64,000 nucleotides of DNA from assembly GCA_027021705.1 (NCBI GenBank), contig JALUTT010000022.1:60-64059 (forward strand). The letters run 5' to 3'. The stretch comes from Anaerolineae bacterium. GTDB lineage: Bacteria; Chloroflexota; Anaerolineae; S140-20. A program made the translations under genes and the position numbers. Positions 28,510 through 64,000 of this stretch are shown here, in pieces. Within the stretch, counting starts at the first letter, position 1. Each line of letters opens with the position of its first letter. The notes beneath the pieces were generated by a model. It was not told the origin of the DNA. It searched no databases and saw only the letters and a list, made by a program, of their open reading frames with translations.

Positions 28510-28665
28510 TCGGTGATTACCCACAAGTGAGCGAGAGAGTGGTCCGTAGCAGGCCGTCCACGAATTTCTCACGAATGCACGAATGGGACGGTCCTTAGTT
28601 CGTGTACTCGTGCCCCATTCGTGGACGGCTAGTCTCCCTATCTCCAAGATATGGGTAATCACCAA
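28510..28665. mobile_element. MITE-like element A, copy 2 (156 bp)
   Basis: GGTGATTACCCA...TGGGTAATCACC termini; interior nearly identical to copy 1; no matching TSD. Confidence 0.85.
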
Positions 28666-32249: not shown

Positions 32250-32549
32250 GCCACTCCTCCTGCTCATCTAGGTAGCTGCGTTGGGAACGTGTCGTTGTCC
32301 AAGGACAGCCGTACCTCAACAAAAGGAACCTAGGGAAACAGCGGTCCTCTTCTCCCGGATACACCCCTCCTTTCTAGCGGACGTAAAGTTCGTGGCGACC
32401 AACCCAACACCCATTATACTAAGAGATTGAGCAGGATGGACCACCCCTGGGGATGATTCCTGGTCATCCCCGAGGATGATTTTCAGCAGCGGGGTAGCAA
32501 CGTAGTGGATGGCGGCCTCACAGCCTAGCGGATGGGGGCATAACGGGGA

Positions 32550-40194: not shown

Positions 40195-40267
40195 TACCCC
40201 CGCCAGGACTCGAACCTGGGCCTCTGGCTCCGGAGGCCAGTGCTCTATCCACCTGAGCTACGGGGGC
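40195..40267 (-). tRNA. tRNA-Arg(CCG)
   Basis: Minus strand GCCCCCGTAGCTCAGGTGGATAGAGCA-CTGGC-CTCCGGA-GCCAG...GTTCGAGTC; CCA not encoded. Confidence 0.95.
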
Positions 40268-40316: not shown

Positions 40317-40682
40317 CCCCTCCCGCAGGTCCCGCGGTGCCCGGCGGTCGCCATAGCATATCGAAGGCGGCCTCCGAGGCGCTCCAGGCCGTGGGGAGGA
40401 CCTGCGGGAGGGTTCCGAGCGCTGAGAATGCTCAAACGCCACCCTCCCGCAGGTCCCGCGGTGCCCGGCGGTCGCCATAGCACATCGAAGGCAGCCTCCG
40501 AGGCGCTTCAGGCTGTGGGGAGGACCTGCGGGAGGGTTCCGAGCGCTGAGAATGCCCAAAGGCCACCCTCCCGCAGGTCCCGCGGTGCCCGGCGGTCGCC
40601 ATAGCATATCGAAGGCGGCCTCCGAGGCGCTCCAGGCCGTGGGGAGGACCTGCGGGAGGGTTCCGAGCGCTGAGAAGCCCTG
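40317..40682 (+). repeat. Three tandem 124-bp units of element B2
   Basis: Cores start at about 40317, 40441 and 40565; right TIR GAGCGCTGAGAAGCCCTG at 40665-40682. Confidence 0.9.
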
Positions 40683-40745: not shown

Positions 40746-40821
<76 letters not shown>

Positions 40822-50743: not shown

Positions 50744-50767
50744 GTGAGGAAAGGGGAGGAAAGCACG

Positions 50768-51673
50768 ATGTACGACCTGATCGTGATCGGCGGTGGCCCG
50801 GCCGGCCTCACAGCGGCCATCTACGCCATCCGCAAGCGGCTGGACATGCTCCTCATCGCTCGCGATCTGGGCGGCAAGACCAACTACCGGCTGGCCCTGG
50901 AGGGTGTCGAGACCTACCAGGTCATTGACGGGCGGGAGGTGGTCAACAAGTTCCGCAGCGAGATCGAGTACCTAGACTTCGCCCACCACCTGGACAGCGT
51001 GGTGGCCGTCCGGGAGATCGAGGGCGGATTCCACGTGGAAACAGAGACGGGGAAGCACTTTGAGGCCCGGACCCTCATCGTGGCGACGGGCGCCGCGCCC
51101 CAGAAGCTGAAGGTGCCCGGCGAGAGCCGCTTTATGATGCGCGGCCTCTGCTACTCGGCCATCAGCTTTGCCCCCCTCTTCCTGGAACGGCCCACGGCGG
51201 TCATCGGATCGGGCAAGCTGGCCCACCGGGCGACGGCCGAGCTGGCCCGCGTCTCCAACCAGGTCTACCTCATCGCCCCCGAGGAGGGGCAATTGGACAC
51301 CCCCCTAGGTCGCCGCATCCAGGGGCTCTCCAACGTGGCCATCCTGGAGGGCTATCGGGTCACCGAGATCAAGGGGGACACCTACGCCCGCAGCGTCGTC
51401 GTCCGCAAAGGGGACGAGGAGCGGGAGATCGCCGTGGACGGCACCTTCATCGAGTTGGACCTGCTGCCTCGCTCCCAGATCGTGGCCAGCCTGGTCGAAC
51501 TGGACGAGCAAGGCCGCATCAAGGTGGATGCCCGCAACCGGACCAGCAAGCCCGGCATCTTCGCCGCCGGCGACGTGACCAACGTGTGGGCAGAGCAGGT
51601 GCTCATCGCCATCGGAGAGGGAGCCAAGGCATCCCTGACCGCTTACGAATACCTGTTGGAGGTGGGGTCATGA
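50768..51673 (+). CDS. Thioredoxin-reductase-like FAD oxidoreductase lacking CxxC
   Basis: GGGPAG, IVATG and GIFAAGD motifs; CYSAIS where CxxC is expected. Confidence 0.85.
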
Positions 51674-52551
51674 CAGCTCAGATCATTGACGGCAAGGCGA
51701 TCGCAGCGGCCATCCAGGCGGAGCTGACCGAGGAGGTGCAACGCCTTAAGGAAACCCACGGGGTCGTTCCCGGCCTGGCCACGGTGCTGGTGGGGGAGAA
51801 CCCGGCCTCCATCACCTACGTCAAGATGAAGCGCAAGCGCTCCGCTGAGGTGGGCATCCGCTCCTTCGGCTACGAACTGCCGGCCGATGCCTCCCAGGAA
51901 GAGGTAGAGGGCCTGGTCCGGGAACTCAACGCCAACCCGGAGGTCCACGGCATCCTGGTCCAGCTCCCCCTGCCCCGCCACCTGAACGAGGAGGCGGTCC
52001 TGGCCGCCATCAGCATTGAGAAGGACGTGGATGGCTTCCATCCCATCAACATCGGACGGCTGGCGATGAAGGGGCGGGAGCCCCTCTTCGTGCCCTGCAC
52101 GCCTGCTGGCGTCATTGAGCTGCTAGACCGAACGGGGGTGGAAATCGAGGGGAAAGAGGCCGTGGTCCTGGGCAGGAGCAACATCGTCGGCCTGCCCGTC
52201 TCCATGCTCCTGCTCCACCGCAACGCCACGGTGACCATCTGCCACTCCCGCACCCGGGACCTGCCGGCCGTCACCCGGCGGGCCGACATCCTGGTGGCGG
52301 CTGTGGGCCGCCCCCAGATGGTCAAAGGGGACTGGGTGAAGCCGGGGGCCGTTGTCATTGATGTAGGCGTGAACCGGGTTGAGGACCCGACGGCCAAGAG
52401 AGGCTACCGGCTGGTAGGGGACGTGGACTTCGAGGAGGTCAGAGAAGTGGCCAGTGCCATCACCCCTGTGCCCGGCGGCGTCGGCCCGATGACCATCGCC
52501 ATGCTCCTCACCAACACCGTGCGTTCGGCCAAACGGGCGGCCGGCCTCTGA
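51670..52551 (+). CDS. folD: Methylene-THF dehydrogenase/cyclohydrolase
   Basis: [29 protein letters not shown] and [11 protein letters not shown] motifs. Confidence 0.97.
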
Positions 52552-52561
52552 CCCAGACGGG

Positions 52562-52681
52562 GCCGTCCACGAATGGGACACGAATACACGAATTAAGGAC
52601 CGCCTCATTCGTGCATTCGTGAGAAATTCGTGGACGGCCCGCTACGGACCACTCTCTCGCTCACCTGTGGGTAATCACCGC
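52562..52681. mobile_element. MITE-like element A, copy 3 (inverted, one end missing)
   Basis: Reverse complement of copy 1 from the inner hairpin to the terminus GGGTAATCACCGC. Confidence 0.8.
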
Positions 52682-52692
52682 CCCCGTTAGAC

Positions 52693-52721
52693 TTGACAAC
52701 GCTGCCCTCGGACGGTAAACT
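52693..52721 (+). promoter_or_regulatory. sigma70-type promoter for aor
   Basis: TTGACA-17-TAAACT. Confidence 0.75.
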
Positions 52722-52834
52722 TCCAAAGCCAACACCCGCTGCGCCTTCCGCGTGCCCCTAGGGAGAGATAGCACCAGCCCGAAAACCCTCTATCGCGCAA
52801 CCCGTGGACTGCAAGACTGTAAGGAGGAAGCAGA

Positions 52835-55027
52835 ATGGCCGTTGCAACCCTGGAGAAGAGCCTGGAGGAGAAAAAAGCTGCCCACCGGCTCCTGGCCGAG
52901 TACCGCTACGAACTGCGTCCGGTCCAAGGGGGCTACGCCAACCGCACCCTCTACATCAATCTCTCAGACCAGACCATCCTCGAGAAGCCCGTCACCCAGG
53001 AGATGAAGGACATCTTCACCGGCGGTCGGGGGTTCGCCCTCTGGCTGCTGTGGAACGCCGTGGACGGGGATACCCGCTGGGACGATCCGAAGAACGAACT
53101 GGTCATCGCCAACGGTCCCATCAGCGGCATCACCGCCTACCCCGGCTCCGGCAAGTCCACCGTGGTCACCATCTCCCCCCTCACCGGCTCGGTGATGGAC
53201 AGCAACGGTGGTGGCTACTTCGGCCCCTACCTCAAGTTCGCCGGCTGGGACGCCCTGGAGATCCAGGGCAAGGCCGAGCGGGACGTGATCATCGTCATTG
53301 ACGGCGACGAAGGGCGGGTGACCATCGAGGAAGCGCCCCTGGAGGACGTGGACACCCACCTGCTGGTCCGCGAACTGACGCGGATGTACGCCAAGAACGA
53401 GCGCGACCAGATCAGCATCTCCGTCGTCTCGGCCGGCCAGGGGGCCGACCACGTCCTCTACGCCGGGTTGAACCTGAGCTGGTACGACGTGCGGCGGAAG
53501 GAGGTCCGGGTGAAACAGGCGGCCCGGGGTGGCTCCGGTCGCGTCTTCCGGGACAAGAAGCTGAAGGCCATCGTGGTGCGCTACAGCGGCCTGCGCGGGG
53601 ACAGCAACGGTCCGGTCAATATGGCCCTGATCCGCAAGGCGGGACGGCGGATCAACCGGGAGATCGCCACCTTGGACGATGAGCAGAACCAGATGCGCCG
53701 GGTGGGCACCCCCTACCTGGTCGAGATTATGAACTACTTCGACCTGCTCCCCGTCCACAACTTCCGCTACGGTTCCCACCCCGATGCCCGCAAGATCGAG
53801 TCCAGCGTCTGGAAGAACCTCTTCACCCAGGGTGTGCCCGACGGCTGCTGGGCCGGATGCACCCTCTCCTGCTCCCACGGTGTGGACCACTTTCACCTCA
53901 AGACGGGGCCTTACGTCGGCCAGGTGGTGCTGGTGGATGGTCCCGAGTACGAGACGGTGGCCGGCGTGGGGGCCAACCTGGGCATCTTCGACCCCTGGGC
54001 GATCCTGGAGATCAACTTCTACTGCGACACCTACGGCATTGACACCATCAGCTTCGCCAACTCGGTGGCCTTCGTGATGGAGTGCTACCAGGAGGGGATC
54101 CTGAACCGGGAGCGCACCGGGGGCCTGGACCTGACCTGGGGCAACGCCGAGGCGGTGTTGGAGCTGCTGCACCAGATGGCCCGGGGCGAGGGGTTCGGGC
54201 GCATCGTCGGCCAAGGCGTGCGTCGGTTGAAGCAGTACTTCGCCGAGACCTACGGGACCGATCCCCAGTTCCTGCACGACATCGGCATGGAGGTCAAGGG
54301 GCTGGAGTTCTCCGAGTACGTCACCAAGGAGTCGCTGGCCCAGCAGGGCGGCTACGCGATGGCCCTCAAGGGGGCCCAGCACGACGAGGCCTGGCTGATC
54401 TTCATGGACCAGGTCCGCAACCAGCTTCCCACCTTTGAGGACAAGGCCGAGGCCCTTCACTACTTCCCCCTCTGGCGCACCTGGTTCAGCCTGCACGGGC
54501 TCTGCAAGCTGCCCTGGAACGACATCCTGCCTGCCAACAACGCCGAGACCGACGAGCCGGAGAAGGTGCCGGAGCACGTGGAGAACTACACCTGGCTCTA
54601 CGAGGGGGTGACCGGCAAGCCGGTGACGCCGGAGGACCTGATCCTGCAATCGGAGCGGGTCTACAACTTCCAGCGGGTCTTCAACCTGAAGATGGGGTTC
54701 GGCACCCGGGAACACGACTACCCGCCCTACCGAGCAATGGGGCCGGTGACGGTGGCGGAGTACGAATCCCGGGCCGAGCGCTACGACCGGCAGTTGCGGG
54801 AGGAGGTGGGGGTTGACCCCGGAGGGATGACGACCGAGGAGAAGATGGCGCGGCTGCGAGAGTACCGGGAGGCCCGCTACGAGCAGCTTCTGGACGCCGT
54901 CTACGCCCGGCGGGGGTGGGACAAGCACGGCATCCCCACGCTGGAGACCCTGCGTCGGCTGGGGATTGACTTCCCCGACGTGGTGGAACTGGTCGAGAGC
55001 CGTCGCAGGGAACTGGAAGGAAGTTGA
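52835..55027 (+). CDS. aor: Aldehyde:ferredoxin oxidoreductase family (W/Mo-pterin)
   Basis: SP.TG...DSNGGG.FGP.LKFAG.D, AARGG.G.V...K.LKAI, GCTLSC, PEYET, CD.YGIDTIS and VKGLE motifs. Confidence 0.9.
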   Translation: MAVATLEKSLEEKKAAHRLLAEYRYELRPVQGGYANRTLYINLSDQTILEKPVTQEMKDIFTGGRGFALWLLWNAVDGDTRWDDPKNELVIANGPISGITAYPGSGKSTVVTISPLTGSVMDSNGGGYFGPYLKFAGWDALEIQGKAERDVIIVIDGDEGRVTIEEAPLEDVDTHLLVRELTRMYAKNERDQISISVVSAGQGADHVLYAGLNLSWYDVRRKEVRVKQAARGGSGRVFRDKKLKAIVVRYSGLRGDSNGPVNMALIRKAGRRINREIATLDDEQNQMRRVGTPYLVEIMNYFDLLPVHNFRYGSHPDARKIESSVWKNLFTQGVPDGCWAGCTLSCSHGVDHFHLKTGPYVGQVVLVDGPEYETVAGVGANLGIFDPWAILEINFYCDTYGIDTISFANSVAFVMECYQEGILNRERTGGLDLTWGNAEAVLELLHQMARGEGFGRIVGQGVRRLKQYFAETYGTDPQFLHDIGMEVKGLEFSEYVTKESLAQQGGYAMALKGAQHDEAWLIFMDQVRNQLPTFEDKAEALHYFPLWRTWFSLHGLCKLPWNDILPANNAETDEPEKVPEHVENYTWLYEGVTGKPVTPEDLILQSERVYNFQRVFNLKMGFGTREHDYPPYRAMGPVTVAEYESRAERYDRQLREEVGVDPGGMTTEEKMARLREYREARYEQLLDAVYARRGWDKHGIPTLETLRRLGIDFPDVVELVESRRRELEGS

Positions 55028-55312
55028 TCACCCACCTGCCCGCAGCACCTTCCGCCGGAAGCGCTCGATCAGGCGGTCAAGGGCCTCGGGCTCGCCCTGA
55101 ATGGACACGTGGGTACGACCGAGCTGGAGCGCGCCGATGCGGGCCGGCGGCAGCTTCACCACCCGCGCGCTCCAGCCCGGCCCCACCACCGTCTCGGCGT
55201 CAACCTGTTGGCCTCCCAGCTCGACCAGATAGCTACACACCAGCGCTGGTCCGATGCCCCGCAGCTCCATCTCCCAAGCTATGGTTCCCTCCTCCTGTTC
55301 CCAGGATCGCAC
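55028..55312 (-). CDS. Small protein, DUF1952/MoaD-associated-like
   Basis: ELRGI...L...YLVELGG...G.GW...LIERFRRKVLRAGG pattern, recalled from memory; start uncertain. Confidence 0.5.
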   Translation of the reverse strand: MRSWEQEEGTIAWEMELRGIGPALVCSYLVELGGQQVDAETVVGPGWSARVVKLPPARIGALQLGRTHVSIQGEPEALDRLIERFRRKVLRAGG

Positions 55313-55384
55313 ATCGGTTGAAGGGCCCGGCCATTCCGGCTAACGCTCTGCCAGGGGATCGCTCCTGACTATCGGGCATGGACG

Positions 55385-57529
55385 ATGAATCCCATCTCGG
55401 CCTTCTTCCTCAGGAACATCATCCCCGTCTTCTTCCTCTACGGGCTCGCCTTCTTCACGACGGGCCTGGCGCTGGCCCTCGCCAGCCGGCGGCGGTCCCG
55501 GTTTCGGTTCGCCCAGGCGATCCGCCCGCTGGCCGCCTTCGGCATCCTGCACGGTGCCCACGAATGGATCGAGATGTTCCAGAAGATCGGCCTCCAGCTC
55601 GGCACCTACACCCCTACGGTTCCCCAGGAGATGGGCCGACTGGCTGTTCTGAGCCTCTCCTTCCTGATGCTGCTGGCCTTCGGCGGGCTGGGATTGAATT
55701 TGGAGCGAGGAGGACGATGGCGAGCCTACCTCCCCGGTGCGGTGATGACCACCCTGTGGGCAGCAGCCCTGCTGATGGTCAAGGTGGTGCTCAAGCCCTC
55801 ACCCACCGAGATGATCGGACTGGCCGATGTCCTGCTCCGCTACCTCCTGGGAATTCCCGGCGCTCTCCTGGGGACGTGGGCCTTGCGGGCCCAGCAGCGG
55901 ACCTTCCGCGAGCACAAGATGCCTCAGTTCGGACGCGATCTAGGCTGGTGCGCCGTCGCCCTCTTCCTCTACGGCGCGGTCGGCCAGTTCTTCGTCCAGC
56001 CCACCTCCCTCTGGCCCTCAACGGTGGTCAACAGCACCCTCTTCCTGCACTGGTTCGGCCTCCCGGTCCAGCTCTTCCGGGCCATCATGGCCTCCGTCCT
56101 CGCCTTCCACATGATCCGCGCCCTCGATGCTTTCGAGTTGGAGAGCCAGCGCCGGCTGGAGGAGGCCCATCGGGCGAAGCTGCGCGCCCAGGCGGCCGCC
56201 CTCGAGGCGGAGCGCCGCACCAGCCGCGAGATGGAACGGTTGAACGAGGAACTGCGGCTCACGACCCGCGAGCTATCGCTGCTGCTGGACCTCTCCAACC
56301 TTCTGGCCACCCCGATGAGCCTGCGGGAGAGGCTGCACAACGTGCTGGAGCGGATCGTCCGCAGCCTCGACTTCCCGGACGCCGGCATGATCCTGCTCAT
56401 CGGACGCGAGGGCGGGATGCTCCACGTCCAGGCCGCCATCGGCTTCTCATCGGCAGACGGACGAGATGAGCAGACGCCTGAGTACCGCTGGGCGATGCGG
56501 CTGGGCGAGCAGTGCGTGGCCCAGGGCGTGACCATCTGCCGACATCTGGATGGTGTCACCCACGCCCTCTCCCTGGAAAGGGTGGTGCGGGAGGTGGAAA
56601 GCCCCTGCTACAGCAGCCCGCTAGCGATGGTCAGTCTTCCCTTGGCCTTCCAGCAGCAGGTCATCGGCAGCATCGTCCTGGCCCGCATCAAAAGCGAGGA
56701 GGAGAGTAGGGGCGAAACATTTTTCGCCCCTCCCTCGACCGATGAGTTCAAGCTGATGCTAGGGGTGGCCCAGCAACTGGGCCTCTCCATCGAGAACGCC
56801 CGCCTCCATCAGGAGGCCCGGGAGCGAGAGAAGCGGCTGGGGGAGCTGTTGCACCAGGTGGTCAATGCCCAGGAGGCGGAGCGCCAGCGCATCGCCCGGG
56901 AGCTGCACGACGCCACCGCTCAGTCGCTCACCGCCATCGCCCTGGGCCTGCGGGGCGTGGAGGCCCTGCTGGACGAGGACCCGGTGGTGGCGACCCGGGA
57001 GATTCGGGAACTCAAATCCTTCAGCACCGATGCGCTAGGCGAGCTGCGGCGGATCATCTCCGACCTACGCCCTCCTCAGCTCGACGACCTGGGGTTGGTC
57101 GCCGCGCTGCAATGGTACATCCACGAATTTGAGAAGCGCTACGAGATCCCCACCGATTTCGCCGTCGAGGGTAGCGAGTTCCGCTTGCCCTCCGAGTACG
57201 AGACGGTCCTCTTCCGCATCACCCAGGAGGCGCTCACCAACATCGCCAAACATGCCAACGCCTCCCGCGCCTTCGTCCGGCTCGAAATCCGCCCCACCCA
57301 CATCTGCGTGACCGTTCAGGACGACGGCTGTGGCTTCGACCCGGAGGAGGTGCTGGAGGGAACCAGACCACGGACCGGGTGGGGGCTGTTGGGCATCCAG
57401 GAGAGGGCTTTGCTGTTGGGCGGCCACTATGAGATCCACTCAGCACCTGGGCAGGGAACGCGAATCCATGTGCGCGTACCTTTGACAACGGAGCCAGAAG
57501 ATGTCGAAAATACGACTGCTGTTGGTTGA
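55385..57529 (+). CDS. Membrane GAF-domain sensor histidine kinase (HisKA_3/NarX type)
   Basis: About six TM helices, GAF domain, ERQRIARELHD, FRITQEALTNIAKHA, DDGCGF and G.GLLGIQER motifs. Confidence 0.93.
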   Translation: MNPISAFFLRNIIPVFFLYGLAFFTTGLALALASRRRSRFRFAQAIRPLAAFGILHGAHEWIEMFQKIGLQLGTYTPTVPQEMGRLAVLSLSFLMLLAFGGLGLNLERGGRWRAYLPGAVMTTLWAAALLMVKVVLKPSPTEMIGLADVLLRYLLGIPGALLGTWALRAQQRTFREHKMPQFGRDLGWCAVALFLYGAVGQFFVQPTSLWPSTVVNSTLFLHWFGLPVQLFRAIMASVLAFHMIRALDAFELESQRRLEEAHRAKLRAQAAALEAERRTSREMERLNEELRLTTRELSLLLDLSNLLATPMSLRERLHNVLERIVRSLDFPDAGMILLIGREGGMLHVQAAIGFSSADGRDEQTPEYRWAMRLGEQCVAQGVTICRHLDGVTHALSLERVVREVESPCYSSPLAMVSLPLAFQQQVIGSIVLARIKSEEESRGETFFAPPSTDEFKLMLGVAQQLGLSIENARLHQEAREREKRLGELLHQVVNAQEAERQRIARELHDATAQSLTAIALGLRGVEALLDEDPVVATREIRELKSFSTDALGELRRIISDLRPPQLDDLGLVAALQWYIHEFEKRYEIPTDFAVEGSEFRLPSEYETVLFRITQEALTNIAKHANASRAFVRLEIRPTHICVTVQDDGCGFDPEEVLEGTRPRTGWGLLGIQERALLLGGHYEIHSAPGQGTRIHVRVPLTTEPEDVENTTAVG

Positions 57530-58154
57530 CGACCACCAGATCGTGCGGGCCGGGTTGCGCATGCTCTTCCTGGCCGAGAAGGACATGGAGATCGTCGGCG
57601 AGGCGGGCAGCGGCGAGGAAGCCATTCAGGCCGTCCGCGAGCTCAAGCCCGACGTGGTGATCATGGACGTGGCAATGCCCGGTATGAGCGGCATCGAGGC
57701 GACGCGCCGCATTAAGGAGGCCGATCCCGACGTGGCCGTGCTGGCCCTGACCATGTACGAGGACGAGCAGTACTTCTTCGAGATGCTGAGCGCGGGTGCC
57801 TTGGGGTACATCCCCAAACGGGCCGCCCCCGACGACCTGATCTCGGCAGTCCGGGTGGTCAGCCAGGGCAACGTCTTCCTCTACCCCACGATGGCCAAGC
57901 TGCTGGTGGACGACTTCCTGCAGCGGACAGGCCCTGGCTCGGCCCGCACCCTGGAGAGGCTCACCCCCCGCGAGCGCCAGGTGCTGACCTACATCGCCGA
58001 AGGGTACACCAACCAGGAGATCGCCGAGGCGCTGGAGATCAGCGTCAAGACGGTGGACCGCCACCGCGAGAACATCATGCGCAAGCTGAACCTGCACAAC
58101 CGGGTAGAGCTGGTCAAGTACGCCATCAAGAGGGGGCTGATTACCGTCTCCTAG
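57501..58154 (+). CDS. NarL/LuxR-family response regulator
   Basis: LVDDH, VIMDVAMP and LTPRERQVL..IAEG motifs. Confidence 0.95.
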   Translation: MSKIRLLLVDDHQIVRAGLRMLFLAEKDMEIVGEAGSGEEAIQAVRELKPDVVIMDVAMPGMSGIEATRRIKEADPDVAVLALTMYEDEQYFFEMLSAGALGYIPKRAAPDDLISAVRVVSQGNVFLYPTMAKLLVDDFLQRTGPGSARTLERLTPRERQVLTYIAEGYTNQEIAEALEISVKTVDRHRENIMRKLNLHNRVELVKYAIKRGLITVS

Positions 58155-58158
58155 CAGA

Positions 58159-58704
58159 GGTCGGGCTTGGAAAGCCCTCCTACGGGGCCGGTGAAGGTGT
58201 AGGAGGCCCTTCCAGGCCGAGTCCCCGAGGCCGGTGAAGGGCGTAGGAGGCCCTTCCAGGGCCGAGCCTCCAAGGCCGGTGAGGGTGTAGGAGGCCCTTC
58301 CAGGGCCGAGCTCCCGGGGCCGGTGAGGGTGTAGGAGGCCCTTCCTGGGCCGAGCCCCCGGGGCTGGTGAAGGCGTAGGAGGCCCTTCCAGGGCCGAGCC
58401 CCCGGGGCCGGTGAAGGCGTAGGAGGCCCTTCCAGGGCCGAGCCTCCAAGGCCGGTGAGGGTGTAGGAGGCCCTTCCAGGGCCGAGCTCCCGGGGCCGGT
58501 GAGGGTGTAGGAGGCCCTTCCTGGGCCGAGCCCCCGGGGCTGGTGAAGGCGTAGGAGGCCCTTCCAGGGCCGAGCCCCCGGGGCCGGTGAAGGCGTAGGA
58601 GGCCCTTCCAGGGCCGATCTCCCAGGGCCGGGAGGGTCGGGCTTGGAAAGGTCGGGCTTGGAAAGGTCGGGCTTGGAAAGGTCGGGCTTGGAAAGCCCTC
58701 CTAC
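58159..58704. repeat. GTAG-type REP-like tandem array: ten ~44-bp units, four 15-bp units and inverted flanking copies
   Basis: Unit GTAGGAGGCCCT-TCC-AGGGCCGAGC+linker; GGTCGGGCTTGGAAAGCCCTCCTAC at both ends. Confidence 0.9.
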
Positions 58705-58727
58705 AGAGAACGGCCCTGGTCACCCCC

Positions 58728-59063
58728 CTAGGCGGGGTTCGGAATCACGCAGATGAAGCGAAGGGCCTCCGTTCCCGTGTTGACGAACTGGTGCTCCTCG
58801 TTGGGGGGCACGTAGACGACGGTGCCGGCCTCGATGGGCCGATCCCCCTCCTGCCCCCGCACCGCCCCCCGCCCGGCCAGGACGAAGACCTCGTGCTCGT
58901 AATCGTGGGTGTGGTAGGGGGTGTTGGCCCCCGGCTCCACCTCGATGACCCGCATCGCGAAGTTGGGCGCTCCATCCTTCCGGGTGATCACCCAGCGGAT
59001 GGTCACGCCGGGCGTTCCCTCCACGGGCTCCGCCGGGGTCTGGGTGTACGCTTCAACCTTCAT
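58728..59063 (-). CDS. Cupin-domain protein
   Basis: PYHTHDYEHEVFVLAG and YVPPNEEHQF motifs. Confidence 0.9.
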   Translation of the reverse strand: MKVEAYTQTPAEPVEGTPGVTIRWVITRKDGAPNFAMRVIEVEPGANTPYHTHDYEHEVFVLAGRGAVRGQEGDRPIEAGTVVYVPPNEEHQFVNTGTEALRFICVIPNPA

Positions 59064-59092
59064 TCCCTTCCTCCTTCAGATCGAGCAATCCG

Positions 59093-59704
59093 CTATCCTC
59101 GGGCGAACCGCTGTTCCTTCCAAGGGTCGGCCTCGTTGTGGTAACCGGCCTGCTCCCAGAAGCCCAGCCGGTCCTCGGCCAGAAACTCGAATCCCCGCAC
59201 CCATTTGGCGCTCTTCCAGAAGTACTTCTTGGGCACGACGGTGCGCAGCGGCCAGCCGTGCTCCGGCTCCAACGGCTTCCCGCCGAAGCGGTAGGCCAGC
59301 AGCACATCGTCGTCCAGCATCACCTCCAGCGGCAGGTTCGTCGTGTAGCCGTACTCGCAATGGGTGACGACGAAGCGGGCCTCCGGCTTGACCCGCACGT
59401 GCTCCAGGAAGTCCCGGAAGCGAACCCCTTCCCAGACCGTGTCCACCATGCTCCAGCGGGTGACGCAGTGGATGTCGGCCACAATGCGGGTGCGGGGCAT
59501 GGCCAGGATCTCGTCGTAGGTGAAGACCCGCTCCTCCTCGACCAGGCCGAAGACCCGGAGCGTCCATCGGGAGAGGTCGTCGTAGCGGGGCACAGGGCCG
59601 TAGTGCAGTACCGGGAACTTGAGGGTCAGCGACTGACCGGGGGGGAGGCGTCCCTCCCGACGGAGGCGCTCTTCCTCCTCCCGGCGGGTAACGGCTCGGT
59701 TCAT
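59093..59704 (-). CDS. Sulfite-oxidase-like molybdopterin oxidoreductase (YuiH type)
   Basis: RLPPGQ...[21 protein letters not shown]...YFWKSAKW and GFWEQAGYH motifs. Confidence 0.9.
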
Positions 59705-59954
59705 CACCACCTCCTGGTCTAGCGACAAGAGTTGTGATCAGACCAGCTATCCGTTATCTGTGCAAAATGTGTTCCCGCTTCGCTCGGCAGGTCTGGCTTC
59801 TATGTCCACGCCCCCTCCCATCCGCCCAGTCACCTACGGTCAGGCTCAATGCGCGGGTCTCCTTGCCGATGCGCGTATTGGAGATGCGAGCATTTCAGCC
59901 ACCGGGCCGGGATGACTCGCCTCTGCCAGACCTCAAGTGCCGAAGCGCCTGCCC

Positions 59955-60182
59955 TTGCTCTTCCCCTCGACCCACCAACCACCGTTCGCCCGCCGGCCAC
60001 CCCCCGCTCACCCCCGACCCACCGACCCCCATCCGCCCGCAGACCATCCCCCGGCCTTCGCCCCGGCACCCCTTTCCGCCCCGCCAACCCGCCCTCTCCT
60101 GCTCGCTCCAGCACCACTCTTCGCCCCAGGCCGGACCACCCCGCCTTGGCTCCCTTTTCCTGCCCACCCTACACGGCCCCAT
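59955..60182 (-). repeat. ORF-less G-rich cassette-like sequence, copy 1
   Basis: Aligns by eye with 61190-61410 (shared CCCCATCCGCCCGCAGACCATCCCCCGG and others). Confidence 0.75.
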
Positions 60183-60310
60183 CCCTAACGACCAGGAGCC
60201 CAGCTACCACCCAACACAGGCAAGGTGCCCTCGCCGGCGAGCACGGTGCCAAGCAAGACCAACCCTGATGAGCCCACGATAGGGCGGTTGGCTGCGGCGA
60301 CCGGTTAGGC
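60183..60310 (-). other. Integron attC site (degenerate, most distal)
   Basis: Minus strand GCCTAAC...GCAGCCAAC...GCTGGGCT...GTTAGGG; L/R spacing atypical. Confidence 0.55.
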
Positions 60311-60369
60311 GATTTAGAATATCTGGTGTATAATAGACACGTGCTCCAACCGTGCATCAGGAGGATAGA

Positions 60370-60597
60370 ATGTACACTCCTTTGATCGAAAAGGTGGTAA
60401 AACATCTCCAAACTCTACCCTACGAATCCCAGCGCCGGGTGCTCGAGTTTACCCAAGCCCTGGCCACCTCCACCCCTCGCGGCATCCCAGGACATATCCT
60501 CCTCCGCTTCGCGGGCTCCATCCCGCCCGACGACGTAAGACGAATGCACCAGGCCATCGAAGAGGGCTGCGAGCAAATCAATGCCAATGAATGGTAA
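60370..60597 (+). CDS. Putative antitoxin (DUF2281-like), inverted cassette
   Basis: Small ORF overlapping a PIN toxin; TATAAT at 60329 upstream. Confidence 0.7.
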   Translation: MYTPLIEKVVKHLQTLPYESQRRVLEFTQALATSTPRGIPGHILLRFAGSIPPDDVRRMHQAIEEGCEQINANEW

Positions 60598-60976
60598 ATA
60601 CCTCCTGGACACCAACATCCTCATCGCCCTCTTCGCCAACGACCGTTCGGTCAAAGATCACCTCGCCCAAGCCGAGGAAATCTTCATCCCTAACATCACT
60701 GTTGGCGAGCTCTTCTACGGCGCCTGGAAATCCGCGCGCGCCCAGGAAAACTTGCAGCGGATTGAAGACCTGGTTGTCGAGACCCCCGTGTTGGGCTGTG
60801 GCATCGAGACCGCGCGCCTATATGGCCGCATCAAGAACGCACTGCGACTCAAAGGACAGCCCATTCCAGAAAACGACATCTGGATCGCCGCCATTGCAGT
60901 GGAACACGACCTCACTCTCGTCACACGCGATGCCCACTTCGCAGAGGTCCCTGACCTGCAAGTAGCTGTTTGGTAA
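60587..60976 (+). CDS. vapC: PIN-domain VapC toxin
   Basis: YLLDTNILI, ITVGELFYGA and NDIWIAAIA...LVTRDAHF motifs. Confidence 0.93.
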   Translation: MNGKYLLDTNILIALFANDRSVKDHLAQAEEIFIPNITVGELFYGAWKSARAQENLQRIEDLVVETPVLGCGIETARLYGRIKNALRLKGQPIPENDIWIAAIAVEHDLTLVTRDAHFAEVPDLQVAVW

Positions 60977-60984
60977 ACCTCGAG

Positions 60985-61113
60985 ACCCAACGACCTGCGG
61001 TTGTGCCGCCGTTCCACCTCCCGGACCCAGGCCCCCCAACGCCCCGAAAAAACCGATTTGCGGAACGCCAAGCCGCGCCGATTTGAAAGGTCGGCACCAA
61101 CCGCCGGTTAGGA
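60985..61113 (-). other. Integron attC site (long type, 129 bp)
   Basis: Minus strand TCCTAAC-CGGCG-GTTGGTGCCG...CGGCACAACC-GCAGGTC-GTTGGGT, with one extra base in L''. Confidence 0.88.
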
Positions 61114-61434
61114 AAGACCCTCTTGGCCCTATGACCTCCATCCGCCCCAGGCGGCCCTTTTTCTCCGCCTCCGAACCATCAGCCCCCATTCGCTTGGGAT
61201 TCCCCTTGCTCTCACCTCCGACCCACCAACCCCCATTCGCCCCCGATGACCGCCCCCTCCCCCTCGAACCACCGACCCCCATCCGCCCGCAGACCATCCC
61301 CCGGCGTTTCGCCCCGGCACCTCCCTTCGCCCCCGCTAACCCGCCCTCCTCCTCCCGCTCCAGGGTCACCTTTCGCCCCAAGCCGGACCATCCCGCCCTC
61401 GCTTGCTCTCTCCGCCTATCCCCCACGCCTCCGT
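61114..61434 (-). other. ORF-less (non-coding) gene cassette
   Basis: 321 bp bounded by two attC sites; no credible ORF; G-rich top strand. Confidence 0.75.
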
Positions 61435-61515
61435 TCCTAACGTGCAGCCCAGCGGCTCGCAAGCGAGGGAGCGAAGCGACCGAGTGCAGCGAGTCCGCTG
61501 CAGCCGATGCTAGGC
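61435..61515 (-). other. Integron attC site (81 bp)
   Basis: Minus strand GCCTAGC-ATCGG-CTGCAGCGG...CCGCTGGGCT-GCAC-GTTAGGA; the upstream gene's TAG stop lies in R''. Confidence 0.8.
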
Positions 61516-61998
61516 GATTTCGCCAGCCAACCGTAAGATACGACGACGAATGTCTCCCGATACCCACATACCTGCCTGAACCAGCTTATCTACATAAGGC
61601 GCCACCTCTGAAATCACGCCCTGTTCTTTGAGTTCAAGGAGCACACGAAGCGTTCCCCACACTTGCAATCCGGCAGCCTGGGCTATCCGACGGGCCAGAA
61701 GATCATCCAACAAAATGACCTGTTCCCGGTGTTCAAGGGCCAAAGCCAATGCGGCCAATTCTCCAAGGCCCAAGTCTAGGGCCAGCCACTCTTCAGGCAC
61801 ATAACGCGGGTTCACGCGCTTGATCCACAGGTATCGCTCAATCACTGGCACGTCGTATCCCCGCTGCTGCCCGGCCTCAAGCTCTGCTATCACGGCATCA
61901 GGAACCCATACCTCGGTAAAAAGCCGTGCTAACCACGCCAACCCGCCGATCCGGTACAAATAAAGTAACGGCGAAGTGTTGCTAATCGCGATGTCCAC
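61510..61998 (-). CDS. DUF3368-type PIN-domain protein (toxin-like)
   Basis: AISNTSPLLYL, LDLGLGELAALALA, ILLDD..ARR.A...GL.VWGTL motifs. Confidence 0.88.
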   Translation of the reverse strand: MDIAISNTSPLLYLYRIGGLAWLARLFTEVWVPDAVIAELEAGQQRGYDVPVIERYLWIKRVNPRYVPEEWLALDLGLGELAALALALEHREQVILLDDLLARRIAQAAGLQVWGTLRVLLELKEQGVISEVAPYVDKLVQAGMWVSGDIRRRILRLAGEIA

Positions 61999-62242
61999 GG
62001 GCTGCCTCCAGCTCCTCTAATTCGGCTGCAAGGGGAAACACCCGATAGCGGTGCAGGTTTAAGAGAAACTCCACCCGTGGCACGCCCGCTAGTTCAGCCG
62101 CGCGGCCCGAGGAGAGGCGTCCCATTTCATAGAGCTTTACGGCAGCCAACATGCGCAATTCCCGCGCAAAAGTCTCCGGGTCACTCTTTTCGGCCAAAAG
62201 CACCTTCTCTGGGATGCTCAAGACCACCTTCAATTCACTCAT
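61982..62242 (-). CDS. UPF0175-family antitoxin-like protein
   Basis: LAAVKLYEMGRLSSGRAAELAGV motif; overlaps the DUF3368 gene. Confidence 0.88.
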   Translation of the reverse strand: MSELKVVLSIPEKVLLAEKSDPETFARELRMLAAVKLYEMGRLSSGRAAELAGVPRVEFLLNLHRYRVFPLAAELEELEAARGHRD

Positions 62243-62299
62243 AGCTTGCCGTCCTTGTATGTAACGCTCGAAGGCTTACCTATCAGTATAGCACATACC

Positions 62300-62369
62300 G
62301 CCTAACGGCTCAGCTCAGCCGCCCGCCAGAACGCCAGCGGAGGCGGGTCGGCTGGAGCGGATGTTAGGC
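62300..62369 (-). other. Integron attC site (70 bp)
   Basis: Minus strand GCCTAAC-ATCCG-CTCCAGCCGAC...CGGCTGAGCT-GAGCC-GTTAGGC. Confidence 0.93.
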
Positions 62370-62469
62370 CGCGCCCCCTGTCCCACCACACCAAAATGAC
62401 CGCCTACAGCACAGGATCACAGGATTCGATAGGCACGTGAAATCTCGTAAAGTGAAGCAGCCTGGTATT

Positions 62470-62901
62470 TCACATCCGCTCCGCGCTCTTGTCAACATCG
62501 CTCCCTTCCTTGATGTCTGCCAGAACCTCGTCAAGAGTTCGAACTCGTTTCACCGCAGGGTGATAGAAGAAAACCGATTGATGAGTCTCCTGTCCAAGTA
62601 CGTATACCCGGGGCTTGCCTTTCTCAAGATAAGACATGATAGCTGCTCCTAACTCGACATACTTCGCCCGTCCGTCGGCTGGTTCGGAAAGGAGAACGAA
62701 GACATCACAATCCCTAACCCCATTCATATCTCGAATTGCGATCTCCCGCACACGCTCTGGGTACTTTTCCCTGTCCTTTCCAAAGACACCTGGATGCGCA
62801 GTCCAGTCAACGGTGATTTCATGGCCAAGCTCTCTCAACCGATGGTGAATCCTTCTTACTCTCTCTTTCTCGCCGATAAACGCTGCCACGTAGAATTTCA
62901 C
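62470..62901 (-). CDS. Nucleoside 2-deoxyribosyltransferase-like cassette protein
   Basis: KFYVAA...DMNGVRDCDVFVLL...KYVELGAA pattern; lower GC; GTG start assumed. Confidence 0.7.
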   Translation of the reverse strand: MKFYVAAFIGEKERVRRIHHRLRELGHEITVDWTAHPGVFGKDREKYPERVREIAIRDMNGVRDCDVFVLLSEPADGRAKYVELGAAIMSYLEKGKPRVYVLGQETHQSVFFYHPAVKRVRTLDEVLADIKEGSDVDKSAERM

Positions 62902-63021
62902 TTCGTCCCCCTGACTACAACAGTCGTGTCGCGTGACAGATACAAGCCCTCCCAGCATAGATGTTTGGTGTGAGAACATCAGTCCGTTGTTTCAGAACCA
63001 GTTCTCAATACAAGACGCGCG

Positions 63022-63091
63022 GCCTAACGGCCCAGCTCAGCCGCCCGCCGGAGCGCCAGCGGAAGCGGGTCGGCTGCAGCGGGTGTTGGGC
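63022..63091 (-). other. Integron attC site (70 bp)
   Basis: Minus strand GCCCAAC-ACCCG-CTGCAGCCGAC...CGGCTGAGCT-GGGCC-GTTAGGC. Confidence 0.93.
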
Positions 63092-63103
63092 GGCACTTGG
63101 CTG

Positions 63104-63709
63104 CTACCACCTTTCAAAGAACGCCTCGGTTACGGCCAACTTGCTCAATAGTGTTTGATACTGCTTTGTCAGGTTGGGATGCACAGGGACCCGATGCCCC
63201 TGAAAGTACTCAATCACCCATCTACAATGGAGCAGAGTGGCTTCGTCTATTTGCCTCGCATACACCATGCTCCTGAGCTTCATCACCCCCTTCCATTCTT
63301 GACTGGGAGCCAGTATATCAGCAAACCGAAGACATAGCGATAGTGGGGCATTGAAGTTATGACCGTTACCTGCATACGAATGGGCTGCAATCGCGTCCAG
63401 AATCAAGCGATCGGTGATACCAAGTTCTTTAGAAACGAGATATGCTCCTACCAGCGCGTGTAGATAAACGGGATGCTGTTCACAGGGATCGCACAATTCG
63501 ATTCCAGCTTCTGCCGCTAGCGCCAATTGTTCCTCGTGACTCAGGTCTCTGGCCGCATCGTGGAGTAGGCCAGCAGTCATCGCCTGTACGCGGTCAAGCG
63601 AGTAAATCGGTGACAATTCTGCCATTACCCGCATAACCCCCAGGGAGTGCTGAAGCCTTGGTGGCGTAAGCAGAATTTTCAGGAATGGCAAGTAACGGTC
63701 AATATGCAT
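63104..63709 (-). CDS. HD-domain phosphohydrolase (YqeK-like) cassette protein
   Basis: RLQHSLGV, AGLLHDAAR, LHALVGA, AIAAHS and RFAD motifs; alternative start 63760. Confidence 0.8.
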   Translation of the reverse strand: MHIDRYLPFLKILLTPPRLQHSLGVMRVMAELSPIYSLDRVQAMTAGLLHDAARDLSHEEQLALAAEAGIELCDPCEQHPVYLHALVGAYLVSKELGITDRLILDAIAAHSYAGNGHNFNAPLSLCLRFADILAPSQEWKGVMKLRSMVYARQIDEATLLHCRWVIEYFQGHRVPVHPNLTKQYQTLLSKLAVTEAFFERW

Positions 63710-63765
63710 TTTGTTGCTCAAATGGCCATCTTCTGTATGCCGACCCAAAGCAATGGTCATATGAC

Positions 63766-63892
63766 GCCCAACGACCTGCGGTTGTGCCGCCGTTCCAACC
63801 CTCGGACCCAAGCCCCCCAACGCCCCGAAAACCGATTTGCGGAACGCCAAGCCGTGCCGATTCGAAAGGTCGGCACCAACCGCTTGTTAGTG
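63766..63892 (-). other. Integron attC site (long type, 127 bp)
   Basis: Near-copy of 60985-61113; minus strand CACTAAC...GTTGGGC. Confidence 0.88.
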
Positions 63893-64000
63893 CTGCCCTC
63901 CTTGGCCCCAACACCTCCATTCGCCCCCGGCTCCCCTCGCTCTCACCCTCGAACCACTACCCCCCGCTCGCTTTCGGTTCCTCGTTGCTCTCACTCTTGA
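63893..64000 (-). repeat. ORF-less G-rich cassette-like sequence, copy 3 (cut by the window edge)
   Basis: CTTGGCCCCAACACCTCCATTCGCCCCCGG resembles the 61120-61260 region. Confidence 0.6.

What the first reader, a model, noticed from the sequence alone, without database searches (positions are those of the whole stretch)
60183..64000. Integron cassette array (6 attC) running off the window edge
Seen: six RYYYAAC...GTTRRRY-type imperfect palindromes. L-box asymmetry and gene polarity put the top strand on minus, so attI/intI would lie beyond 64000. There are three attC types (70, 81 and 127-129 bp), with pairs of near-identical sites. Established: this is integron architecture, and such arrays often carry TA and defence genes. 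Inference: a sedentary chromosomal integron or CALIN in a lineage where integrons are little studied.
Basis: partly seen in the sequence, partly recalled or inferred. Interest (0 to 1): 0.75.

Follow-up and report, generated by a model that had tools for sequence, protein, structure and literature searches.

The report
Chloroflexota chromosomal integron cassette array
The window ends in a genuine integron gene-cassette array in the chromosome of an uncultured hydrothermal Chloroflexota bacterium; it carries toxin-antitoxin and probable phage-defence genes and is a clear but unsurprising example of a known element, with its integrase still unseen.

Summary
Six attC-type imperfect palindromes lie at 60183-60310, 60985-61113, 61435-61515, 62300-62369, 63022-63091 and 63766-63892. 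They are 128, 129, 81, 70, 70 and 127 nt long.

- **Structure.** All six show the canonical layout on the minus strand only: R'' ending AAC, spacer, 3 bp, bulge, 6 bp, bulge A, stem, spacer, GTT-R'.
- **Covariance model.** A model built only from 13 class 1 integron attC sites scores the two 70-nt sites (28 and 18.5-20 bits). It does not score the 81- and 127-nt types.
- **Cassette mobility.** Near-identical metagenome contigs carry the same cassettes behind attC sites of different types. Identity always breaks at G|TT, so all types act as recombination partners.
- **Host.** The host is an Anaerolineae-like Chloroflexota chromosome.
- **Cargo.** VapBC, UPF0175/DUF3368 (PADLOC candidate PDC-S70), a YqeK-like HD hydrolase, a 143-aa protein and a G-rich non-coding cassette family. 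PycTM and a NucS-like nuclease lie beyond the edge.
- **Extent.** The array ends in a truncated cassette at about 59950 and continues at least 2.8 kb past 64000.
- **Integrase.** No intI was found, so complete integron versus CALIN stays open.

Integrons are already reported in Chloroflexota, so this is a new member of a known kind.

The parts
59950..60188 (-). Terminal, truncated non-coding cassette. It holds only the 5' part of the G-rich repeat family and has no attC. This is the distal end of the array.
   Evidence: It aligns with complete copies in L105, L110 and L200 up to about 59950 and then diverges into the chromosomal intergenic region. The repeat motif hits are confined to the array.
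60183..60310 (-). attC1 (128 nt), the site of the VapBC cassette. R'' is GCCTAAC and R' is GTTAGGG.
   Evidence: Descriptor hit on the minus strand. Surrogate model R2 gives 11.5 bits, E 1.4, which is not significant.
60370..60597 (+). 75-aa antitoxin-like gene (VapB position). It is inverted relative to the array and is preceded by TATAAT (60329-60334) and AGGAGGA.
   Evidence: ORF. It has no Pfam, PADLOC or NCBIfam hit. It overlaps the PIN gene. The same 75-aa product is called on other contigs.
60581..60976 (+). VapC-type PIN-domain toxin (131 aa).
   Evidence: Pfam PIN E 2e-19. NCBIfam VapC models match below their cutoffs.
60985..61113 (-). attC2 (129 nt), a member of the homogeneous 127-nt attC family.
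   Evidence: Descriptor. It is 90% identical to attC6. The family has 27 distinct copies with invariant L arms. A cassette junction lies at its G|TT.
61114..61440 (-). Body of a complete non-coding cassette (the whole cassette, including attC2, is 60991-61440). The top strand is G-rich with 47-nt tandem units.
61435..61515 (-). attC3 (81 nt). R'' is GCCTAGC and R' is GTTAGGA. It overlaps the stop codon of the DUF3368 gene.
   Evidence: Descriptor. Non-coding cassettes follow 81-nt sites in several contigs.
61510..61998 (-). DUF3368 (PIN-like) protein, 162 aa, the putative toxin of the pair.
   Evidence: Pfam DUF3368 E 5e-14. PADLOC PDC-S70 E 2e-45.
61982..62242 (-). UPF0175 protein, 86 aa, the putative antitoxin partner.
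   Evidence: Pfam UPF0175 E 8e-24. PADLOC PDC-S70 E 4e-6.
62300..62369 (-). attC4 (70 nt), a fully canonical attC.
   Evidence: R1 28.4 bits, E 8e-5; R2 28.0 bits. It scores on the minus strand only. It has zero mismatches in the descriptor.
62470..62901 (-). 143-aa cassette protein with a weak likeness to nucleoside 2-deoxyribosyltransferase.
   Evidence: Pfam Nuc_deoxyrib_tr E 0.002, below the cutoff. It has no PDB, PADLOC or NCBIfam match. A 143-aa gene is called at this position in L002.
63022..63091 (-). attC5 (70 nt).
   Evidence: R1 18.5 bits, E 0.028; R2 19.9 bits, E 0.01. Contexts diverge at its G|TT.
63104..63760 (-). HD-domain hydrolase of the YqeK (Ap4A hydrolase) family, 218 aa.
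   Evidence: Pfam HD. TIGR00488 89.5 bits against a cutoff of 70.15. PDB 3ccg, 2o08 and 8jja.
63766..63892 (-). attC6 (127 nt), of the 127-nt family.
   Evidence: Descriptor at the relaxed R-box setting; alignment A5.
63893..64000 (-). 3' part of a G-rich repeat element. It belongs to the cassette whose PycTM gene lies beyond the window edge.
   Evidence: L001 and L002 overlap the window end at 99.5-99.7% identity and continue upstream.

Best explanation
This is the promoter-distal end of an integron gene-cassette array in the chromosome of an uncultured Anaerolineae-like Chloroflexota bacterium from hydrothermal or hot environments.

The top (coding) strand is the window's minus strand. Read on that strand, the order is:
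- [PycTM gene + repeat + attC6, starting beyond 64000]
- [HD/YqeK-like gene + attC5]
- [143-aa gene + attC4]
- [UPF0175/DUF3368 pair + attC3]
- [non-coding G-rich cassette + attC2]
- [inverted VapBC pair + attC1]
- [truncated non-coding cassette, ending at about 59950]

The mechanism is inferred from the integron paradigm. The window's plus strand is the bottom strand of each attC. It folds into a hairpin whose extrahelical bases (T, plus C or G) mark it for an IntI tyrosine recombinase. Cleavage at AA|C on that strand, which is G|TT on the top strand, and exchange between two attC sites excises a cassette as a circle. attI x attC exchange re-inserts it at the head of the array.

The sequences show directly that the same cassettes sit behind different attC types in closely related genomes, with breaks exactly at G|TT. 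The following are inferred: that an integrase does this, that the TA pairs stabilise the array, that the inverted VapBC cassette uses its own promoter, and that several cassettes serve phage defence.
For: - **attC layout.** All six sites have the canonical layout on one strand. The hit count is far above shuffles and above control Chloroflexota DNA.
- **Covariance models.** Models trained only on 13 plasmid class 1 attC sites (alignments A2 and A4) score attC4 and attC5 significantly, on the minus strand only. They also score a 64-nt site just beyond the edge at 31.6 bits. They give no hit at E<=1 in 1.13 Mb of control DNA.
- **Likeness to known sites.** The 64-nt site is 78% identical to the aadB attC.
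- **Junctions.**
  - L001, L002, L003, L004 and L200 are 96-100% identical to the window within cassettes and diverge at G|TT.
  - The same cassette starts occur behind different attC types: PycTM after 64- and 127-nt sites; VapBC after 70- and 129-nt sites; the 143-aa gene after 70- and 127-nt sites; non-coding cassettes after 72- to 129-nt sites.
  - Across 27 copies of the 127-nt attC the arms and GTT are invariant, while the four bases after GTT vary.
- **Composition.** The array has 54-62% G+C against about 60-70% in the rest of the window, with a strong strand skew.
- **Chromosomal setting.** MutS, LeuRS, FTHFS and tRNA genes lie in the window. An independent 68-kb assembly is 99.9% identical up to the VapC gene.
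- **Cargo.** It is typical of chromosomal integrons: two TA-like pairs and defence-type genes (bioRxiv 10.1101/2024.07.02.601686).
Against: - No intI or attI was found in the window, in the 2.8 kb beyond it, in 18 metagenome loci holding the 127-nt attC pattern (four of them without a recognisable attC, at least one a chance match in a gene), or near the orthologous flank in 80 related species.
- The surrogate covariance models do not score four of the six sites. The real IntegronFinder model could not be run.
- Five of the six sites have C rather than the usual G as the first extrahelical base on the bottom strand.
- The 3' spacer of the 127-nt type is 8 nt, against 5-6 nt in the class 1 training sites.
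- Recombination activity is inferred from population polymorphism and was not observed.
Confidence: 0.9

Rival explanations
1. The array is a CALIN, a cluster of attC sites with no integron integrase nearby. Either it was left behind by loss or rearrangement of intI, or its cassettes are moved in trans by an integrase encoded elsewhere.
For: No IntI-like ORF appears in 64 kb on one side, in 2.8 kb on the other, or in any related contig. The distal cassette is truncated and IS elements sit inside related arrays, so rearrangements do happen. CALINs are common: 279 in the IntegronFinder survey (PMC4889954).
Against: The side where intI is expected is exactly the side that runs off the data. Cassette order differs between 96-100% identical strains at G|TT, which points to recent integrase activity in this population. 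At least ten attC sites are seen with the end not reached, and only 6.6% of CALINs exceeded ten sites in that survey.
Confidence: 0.3
2. The palindromes are not attC sites. They are another kind of intergenic repeat, such as REP/MITE-like elements or terminator hairpins, that happen to end in AAC...GTT.
For: Four of the six sites are not scored by the surrogate attC models. Fold energies are not unusual against shuffles: z is -0.3 to -2.3. The genome carries other tandem repeats.
Against: The bulge pattern is strand-specific and identical to class 1 attC sites. Two sites, plus one beyond the edge, get significant scores from a model trained on unrelated hosts. Whole gene-sized modules are exchanged precisely at G|TT behind all site types. 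No terminator-like T runs exceed chance.
Confidence: 0.03
3. The array belongs to a mobile element or another organism and was joined to this chromosome by mis-assembly or mis-binning.
For: G+C drops and strand skew changes at the array. Contigs from other assemblies break inside the array.
Against: Two independent assemblies contain the same junction between the housekeeping genes and the truncated cassette/VapBC cassette at 99.7-99.9% identity (L086/L199). A short Logan contig (L087) covers only the flanking genes. Lower G+C is expected for acquired cassettes.
Confidence: 0.03

Closest known systems
attC sites of class 1 mobile integrons (aadB, aadA2, aac(6')-IIc and others)
   Same: The layout is the same: R''-5 nt-3 bp-bulge-6 bp-bulge A-stem...6 nt-R'. 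The motif AGCCGAC...GGCT is shared. attC4 and attC5 are 61-70% identical to the aadB and aadA2 sites. The 64-nt site beyond the edge is 72-78% identical to them. All three are scored by a model trained on the class 1 sites.
   Different: The host is Chloroflexota, the location is chromosomal and there are no resistance genes. The 5' spacer is 4 nt in the 70-nt sites. The first extrahelical base is mostly C rather than G on the bottom strand.
Sedentary chromosomal integrons of Vibrio (V. cholerae superintegron with VCR repeats)
   Same: Both have a long (about 125-129 nt), highly homogeneous attC family. Both carry TA cassettes, some inverted with their own promoter (my own knowledge). Both have paralogous non-coding cassette families conserved at over 80% identity (PMC1382264) and defence cargo (bioRxiv 10.1101/2024.07.02.601686).
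   Different: Here at least four attC sequence families are mixed in 4 kb. The non-coding family is G-rich with 47-nt tandem units. The integrase and the array size are unknown, and the phylum is different.
CALIN elements (Cury et al. 2016, PMC4889954)
   Same: Two or more attC sites on one strand with no intI in the sequence available.
   Different: The definition needs the absence of intI within 4 kb of the whole cluster. Here the cluster runs off the data on the side where intI is expected.
Integrons reported in Chloroflexi/Chloroflexota and in Archaea by IntegronFinder surveys (PMC4889954, PMC8618304, PMC9668308)
   Same: The same phylum is already listed as carrying integrons. Cassette genes are shared across domains: the NucS/DUF91-like cassette protein has 59-63% identical homologues annotated as Bathyarchaeia, Aigarchaeota and Methanosuratincola.
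   Different: I could not retrieve those published Chloroflexota integrons for a direct comparison of attC or IntI.

Membership tests
Integron cassette array (attC sites) | R''/R' inverted core sites approximating RYYYAAC / GTTRRRY. | tested here: met
   All six have ...A[A/G]C and GTT... with at most 3 mismatches in 7 between the boxes. Only attC4 and attC5 meet the strict consensus. attC3 has AGC in R''.
Integron cassette array (attC sites) | Imperfect L''/L' repeats with extrahelical bases on one strand only, which defines the recombinogenic bottom strand. | tested here: met
   The pattern 3 bp-bulge-6 bp-bulge A-stem is present in all six on the minus (top) strand and never on the plus strand. 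The same pattern is seen in 8 of 13 class 1 sites and never on their reverse strand.
Integron cassette array (attC sites) | A significant score with an attC covariance model. | tested here: inconclusive
   Two surrogate models were built from 13 class 1 sites. attC4 scores 28 bits (E 8e-5) and attC5 scores 18.5-19.9 bits (E 0.01-0.03). attC1 scores 11.5 bits (E 1.4). attC2, 3 and 6 are not scored. The IntegronFinder model was not available.
Integron cassette array (attC sites) | Sites in one orientation, each closing a gene-sized module of about 0.4-1.2 kb. | tested here: met
   The cassettes are 744, 722, 865, 450 and 802 bp. Three have ORFs on the top strand, one is an inverted TA pair and one is non-coding.
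Integron cassette array (attC sites) | Cassettes are independent mobile units exchanged at G|TT of R'. | tested here: met
   Alternative neighbours occur in 96-100% identical contigs, with breaks at G|TT behind the 64-, 70-, 81- and 127-nt site types. This is comparative evidence, not experimental.
Complete integron | An intI gene (tyrosine recombinase with the IntI-specific additional domain) adjacent to the array. | not testable with these tools
   There is no IntI1-like ORF in the window or in any fetched locus. The head of the array lies outside all the sequence I could reach.
Complete integron | An attI site and a Pc promoter at the head of the array. | not testable with these tools
   The only lead is L001 160-287. 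Four 18-bp palindromic motifs lie before a G|TTAGGA junction with no canonical attC. It remains uninterpreted.
Sedentary chromosomal integron (Cury et al. criteria) | More than 19 attC sites, or presence in most genomes of the species. | tested here: inconclusive
   Ten attC sites are seen in the window plus L001, and the end is not reached. The array is present at the same chromosomal junction in two assemblies. It is absent next to the orthologous gene in 80 other Chloroflexota species.
CALIN | [quoted passage not shown] | tested here: inconclusive
   The first half is met. The second half is met only on the distal side.
Type II toxin-antitoxin VapBC | A PIN-domain toxin preceded by a small overlapping antitoxin gene. 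| tested here: met
   PIN E 2e-19. The 75-aa upstream ORF overlaps it by 17 nt. The antitoxin has no family match.
PADLOC candidate system PDC-S70 | Both component families present and adjacent. | tested here: met
   DUF3368 protein E 2e-45 and UPF0175 protein E 4e-6 against the PDC-S70 models. PDC-S70 is a candidate defence system; whether defence has been tested for it was not checked here.
Pycsar | A pyrimidine cyclase together with an effector. | tested here: not met
   Only a PycTM-type effector (L001 2157-2732) is present. The neighbouring cassette gene is a NucS/DUF91-like protein, not a cyclase.

The most novel reading that the evidence does not exclude
The G-rich non-coding cassette family may be a functional part of the integron rather than a merely selfish cassette. 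The family is 456-650 nt long, carries the motif GGGCGAA about every 23 nt, has variable numbers of 47-nt tandem units, and always ends in a 127-nt attC whose arms are invariant. It could be a protein-binding or G-quadruplex-forming element that influences attC folding, cassette excision or transcription across the array. It is multi-copy in this lineage. Exact-pattern scans did not find it in the 185,579 species-representative genomes or in IMG/VR.
Probability: 0.15. Interest if true: 0.6.

Novelty: new member of a known kind. Interest (0 to 1): 0.4.

Why it matters
- It documents a working-looking integron cassette pool in a thermophilic or hydrothermal Chloroflexota lineage, a phylum where integrons are listed but barely described.
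- Some of its attC sites are so close to those of clinical class 1 integrons that a model trained on plasmid resistance cassettes finds them. This supports the view that one recombination grammar links very distant cassette reservoirs.
- The metagenome contigs give a natural snapshot of cassette shuffling between near-identical strains.
- The cargo adds candidates for compact defence genes from an extreme environment: TA pairs, an orphan PycTM effector, a NucS-like nuclease and a YqeK-like HD hydrolase.
- None of this changes current understanding of integrons.

Tried and rejected
**Finding the source contig or intI**
- Exact 40-mer and 22-mer scans of genome contigs and metagenome contigs found nothing.
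- Walking was only possible to 2.8 kb beyond the edge (L001 and L002).
- Look-ups with wrong start codons failed.
- tblastn and phmmer with IntI1 found nothing in the window, the related contigs, the 18 JGI loci or the 80 synteny loci.
- Homologues of the NucS-like cassette protein in longer contigs were not in integrons.

**Site detection**
- The strict RYYYAAC/GTTRRRY pair search finds only attC4 and attC5, plus one chance pair at 697-810.
- A fixed-register PWM from class 1 sites was too rigid to be useful.
- A full-length MAFFT alignment of class 1 sites (A1) was too poorly aligned to model.
- Rfam has no matching family.

**Other ideas dropped**
- The 47-nt repeat unit as a copy of the attC L'' arm: the similarity is not above shuffles, with 91 of 500 shuffles reaching it.
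- The non-coding cassettes as coding sequence: there is no 3-base periodicity and there are 1-nt indels.
- L102: at least this one of the 18 metagenome hits is a chance match inside a uracil-DNA glycosylase gene.
- L001 196-292 as a canonical attC: not supported.
- The consensus promoter scan gave nothing above chance.

Full report
**Observation**

Reading 59000-64000 shows six imperfect palindromes that begin with ...YTAAC and end with GTTRG.... I wrote a structural descriptor from textbook attC architecture and from 13 class 1 attC sites. It requires R'' ending A[A/G]C, a 2-6 nt spacer, 3 bp, a 1-nt bulge, 6 bp, an optional bulge, 3 bp, a 4-8 nt spacer, and GTT-R'.

The descriptor recovers 8 of the 13 known sites and none on their reverse strand. 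In the window it finds attC1 60183-60310 (128 nt), attC2 60985-61113 (129), attC3 61435-61515 (81), attC4 62300-62369 (70), attC5 63022-63091 (70) and, with a relaxed R-box, attC6 63766-63892 (127). All are on the minus strand, and all have A as the second bulged base.

Dinucleotide shuffles of the whole window give 0.63 (strict) or 2.1 (relaxed) hits on average. In 1.13 Mb of other Chloroflexota DNA, six loci had two or more hits and none had three or more separate sites on one strand.

By sequence there are four families: attC4/5 are 90% identical, attC2/6 are 90% identical, attC1 is only about 62% identical to attC2/6, and attC3 stands alone.

**Independent attC model**

IntegronFinder's model is not available here, so I built surrogates.

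- I fetched class 1 integrons from ten plasmids and extracted 13 distinct attC sites.
- I aligned them with the long ones trimmed (A2). A second alignment included the long ones in full (A4).
- I supplied the canonical R/L pairing as the structure (models R1 and R2).

Over the whole window with filters off, R1 gives attC4 28.4 bits (E 8e-5) and attC5 18.5 bits (E 0.028). Both are on the minus strand, and everything else is at E>1. R2 gives 28.0 and 19.9 bits, and 11.5 bits (E 1.4) for attC1. attC2, 3 and 6 are not scored. A 64-nt site just beyond the window edge (L001 2056-2119) scores 31.6 bits and is 78% identical to the aadB attC. In 1.13 Mb of control Chloroflexota DNA, R1 gives no hit at E<=1.

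**Comparative evidence**

Exact-protein look-ups found contigs from other assemblies.

- **L002** (NCBI GCA_011330695.1, DRPX01000548.1) is colinear with window 64000->60946 at 99.5% identity. It adds 1 kb upstream.
- **L001** (ENA ERZ27262676) matches 64000->63017 at 99.7%. It then carries a different gene after attC5.
- **L003** (same sample) matches 63031->60789 at 99.96%. It has a 127-nt attC where the window has the HD cassette and attC5.
- **L004** (hydrothermal vent SRR4453772) matches 62455->60986 at 99.0%. It continues after attC2 with the PycTM cassette instead of VapBC.
- **L200** (same vent sample) joins the VapBC cassette directly behind attC4. It also has a complete non-coding cassette where the window's last one is truncated.

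At nucleotide level every break lies at G|TT of R'. Across all fetched loci, the same cassette starts (TTRRRY plus 10 nt) occur behind attC sites of different classes:

- PycTM after 64- and 127-nt sites.
- VapBC after 70- and 129-nt sites.
- The 143-aa gene after 70- and 127-nt sites.
- Non-coding cassettes after 72-, 77-, 81-, 88-, 119- and 126-129-nt sites.

In 27 distinct copies of the 127-nt family, the L arms and GTT are invariant while the four bases after GTT vary. This is the signature of integron cassette exchange. It covers the site types that the covariance models missed.

**Orientation and extent**

The bulges lie on the 5' arm of the minus strand, as on the top strand of class 1 sites. 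The models hit only the minus strand. Three of four coding cassettes have their ORFs on the minus strand, followed by their attC.

On the low-coordinate side the last cassette is a 5' fragment of the non-coding family. It loses similarity to complete copies at about 59950, about 220 bp before the molybdopterin-oxidoreductase gene. On the high side the array continues for at least 2.8 kb, with four more attC sites, a NucS/DUF91-like gene and a PycTM gene.

**Host and setting**

The window carries PFOR, MutS, LeuRS, FTHFS, malic enzyme and three tRNA genes. LeuRS is at most 76% identical to Anaerolineae/Chloroflexota MAGs, including hydrothermal 'HyVt' bins.

An independent 68-kb contig is 99.9% identical from 50194 to 60929 and ends inside vapC, so the chromosome-array junction is not an assembly artefact. 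G+C falls from about 65% to 54-62% in the array. The orthologous flank in 80 other Chloroflexota species has no array and no IntI-like gene, so the array is lineage-specific at this locus.

**Cargo**

- **VapBC.** A VapC PIN toxin with a 75-aa overlapping upstream ORF, inverted relative to the array. It is preceded by a perfect TATAAT (60329-60334) and AGGAGGA.
- **UPF0175 + DUF3368.** Both match the PADLOC candidate system PDC-S70.
- **143-aa protein.** It has only a sub-threshold likeness to nucleoside 2-deoxyribosyltransferase and no solved relative.
- **HD hydrolase.** It exceeds the YqeK (Ap4A hydrolase) equivalog cutoff and matches PDB 3ccg and 8jja.
- **Beyond the edge.** A PycTM effector with no cyclase, and a NucS/DUF91-like protein. 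The latter has 55-95% identical homologues; those that carry a source name include Planctomycetota, Methylomirabilales, Fervidobacterium and Bathyarchaeia. Elsewhere they sit beside PARIS-like and DarT genes.

This fits the published picture of chromosomal integrons as stores of TA and defence cassettes (bioRxiv 10.1101/2024.07.02.601686).

**Non-coding cassettes**

One complete copy (60991-61440), one truncated copy (59950-60188) and the tail of one fused behind PycTM (63893-64000) belong to a single family. At least ten further complete copies occur in the fetched contigs.

- They start with TTAGGAACGGRGGCG and are 456-650 nt long.
- G+C is 0.68 and the top-strand GC skew is +0.5.
- The motif GGGCGAA recurs about every 23 nt, and 47-nt tandem units vary in number.
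- They end in the 127-nt attC.
- Variation shows no codon periodicity and includes 1-nt indels, so they are non-coding.
- There is no Rfam match.
- The repeat unit is not significantly similar to the attC arm.
- Exact-pattern scans of the species-representative genomes found neither the 127-nt attC nor the cassette start. A scan of IMG/VR for the attC pattern also found nothing.

Paralogous, conserved non-coding cassettes are known from Vibrio arrays, where a selfish or a regulatory role was proposed (PMC1382264). I regard the selfish-cassette reading as the default and a functional role as the most novel possibility not excluded.

**Integrase**

tblastn and phmmer with IntI1 find nothing in the window, in L001-L005, in the 18 JGI loci that hold the 127-nt attC pattern (four of them without a recognisable attC, at least one a chance match in a gene), or in the 80 synteny loci.

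L001 160-264 holds four 18-bp palindromic motifs just before a G|TTAGGA junction, with no canonical attC. This could be an atypical attC, an operator array or an attI. The contig ends too soon to tell. Complete integron versus CALIN therefore stays open. The recent cassette shuffling between near-identical strains makes an active integrase somewhere in this population likely.

**Comparison and verdict**

The element works like, and by the testable criteria is, an integron cassette array. Its short attC sites are close relatives of class 1 attC sites. Its long homogeneous attC family, TA cassettes and paralogous non-coding cassettes parallel Vibrio chromosomal integrons.

Integrons are already reported in Chloroflexi/Chloroflexota (PMC4889954, PMC8618304, PMC9668308). 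This is a new member of a known kind and of moderate interest. Its main value is as a documented example of natural cassette shuffling and as a source of compact defence candidates and an unexplained non-coding cassette family.

Noticed in passing
window 58183-58695: A 44-bp tandem repeat (10.2 copies) is followed by a 15-bp repeat (4.1 copies). They lie between a LuxR-type response-regulator gene and a cupin gene. The otherwise 99.9% identical contig L199 has four fewer 44-bp units, so the copy number varies between strains.
   Followed up: partly
window 40318-40680: A 124-bp tandem repeat (2.9 copies, 95% matches) lies between two tRNA genes (40195-40267 minus strand, 40746-40818 plus strand).
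   Followed up: no
window ~28511-28629 and ~52562-52680: A dispersed inverted repeat of about 119 bp with 94% identity. It was seen only as a secondary BLAST match of L199 to the window.
   Followed up: no
L001 160-264: Four copies of an 18-bp palindromic motif (like GCATATAGGAGTAGATGC) lie directly before a G|TTAGGA cassette junction. No canonical attC is found there. It could be an operator array, an atypical attC or an attI.
   Followed up: partly
L001 960-2051: This NucS/DUF91-like cassette protein has 55-95% identical homologues. Those that carry a source name are spread across bacterial and archaeal phyla (Planctomycetota, Methylomirabilales, Fervidobacterium, Bathyarchaeia, Aigarchaeota). 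In one contig (L118) a homologue sits in a defence-island-like neighbourhood with PARIS-like and DarT genes; in the two others examined (L116, L117) the neighbours are ordinary housekeeping genes.
   Followed up: partly
L100 1086-4227 and 5545-6707: Putative transposase genes lie inside a related cassette array from metagenome Ga0256830: two long ORFs whose family I guessed by eye as IS701-like, and an orfA/orfB pair that looks IS3-like. No family search was run on them. If they are IS elements, these arrays are being rearranged.
   Followed up: no
L102 13669-13688: The invariant 20-mer of the 127-nt attC arm also occurs inside a family-4 uracil-DNA glycosylase gene of an unrelated 762-kb contig. 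This is a chance match and a warning against pattern-only searches.
   Followed up: yes
window 13130-15286; 29652-32267; 33404-38380: An N6 DNA methylase of Eco57I type, an MtrC-like multihaem cytochrome and a 1658-aa DUF11-repeat surface protein lie in the housekeeping part of the window.
   Followed up: no
L001 2157-3076 / window 63766-64000: The PycTM gene is followed by about 210 bp of the G-rich repeat and a 127-nt attC, with no attC in between. It looks like a fusion of a coding cassette with a non-coding cassette.
   Followed up: partly
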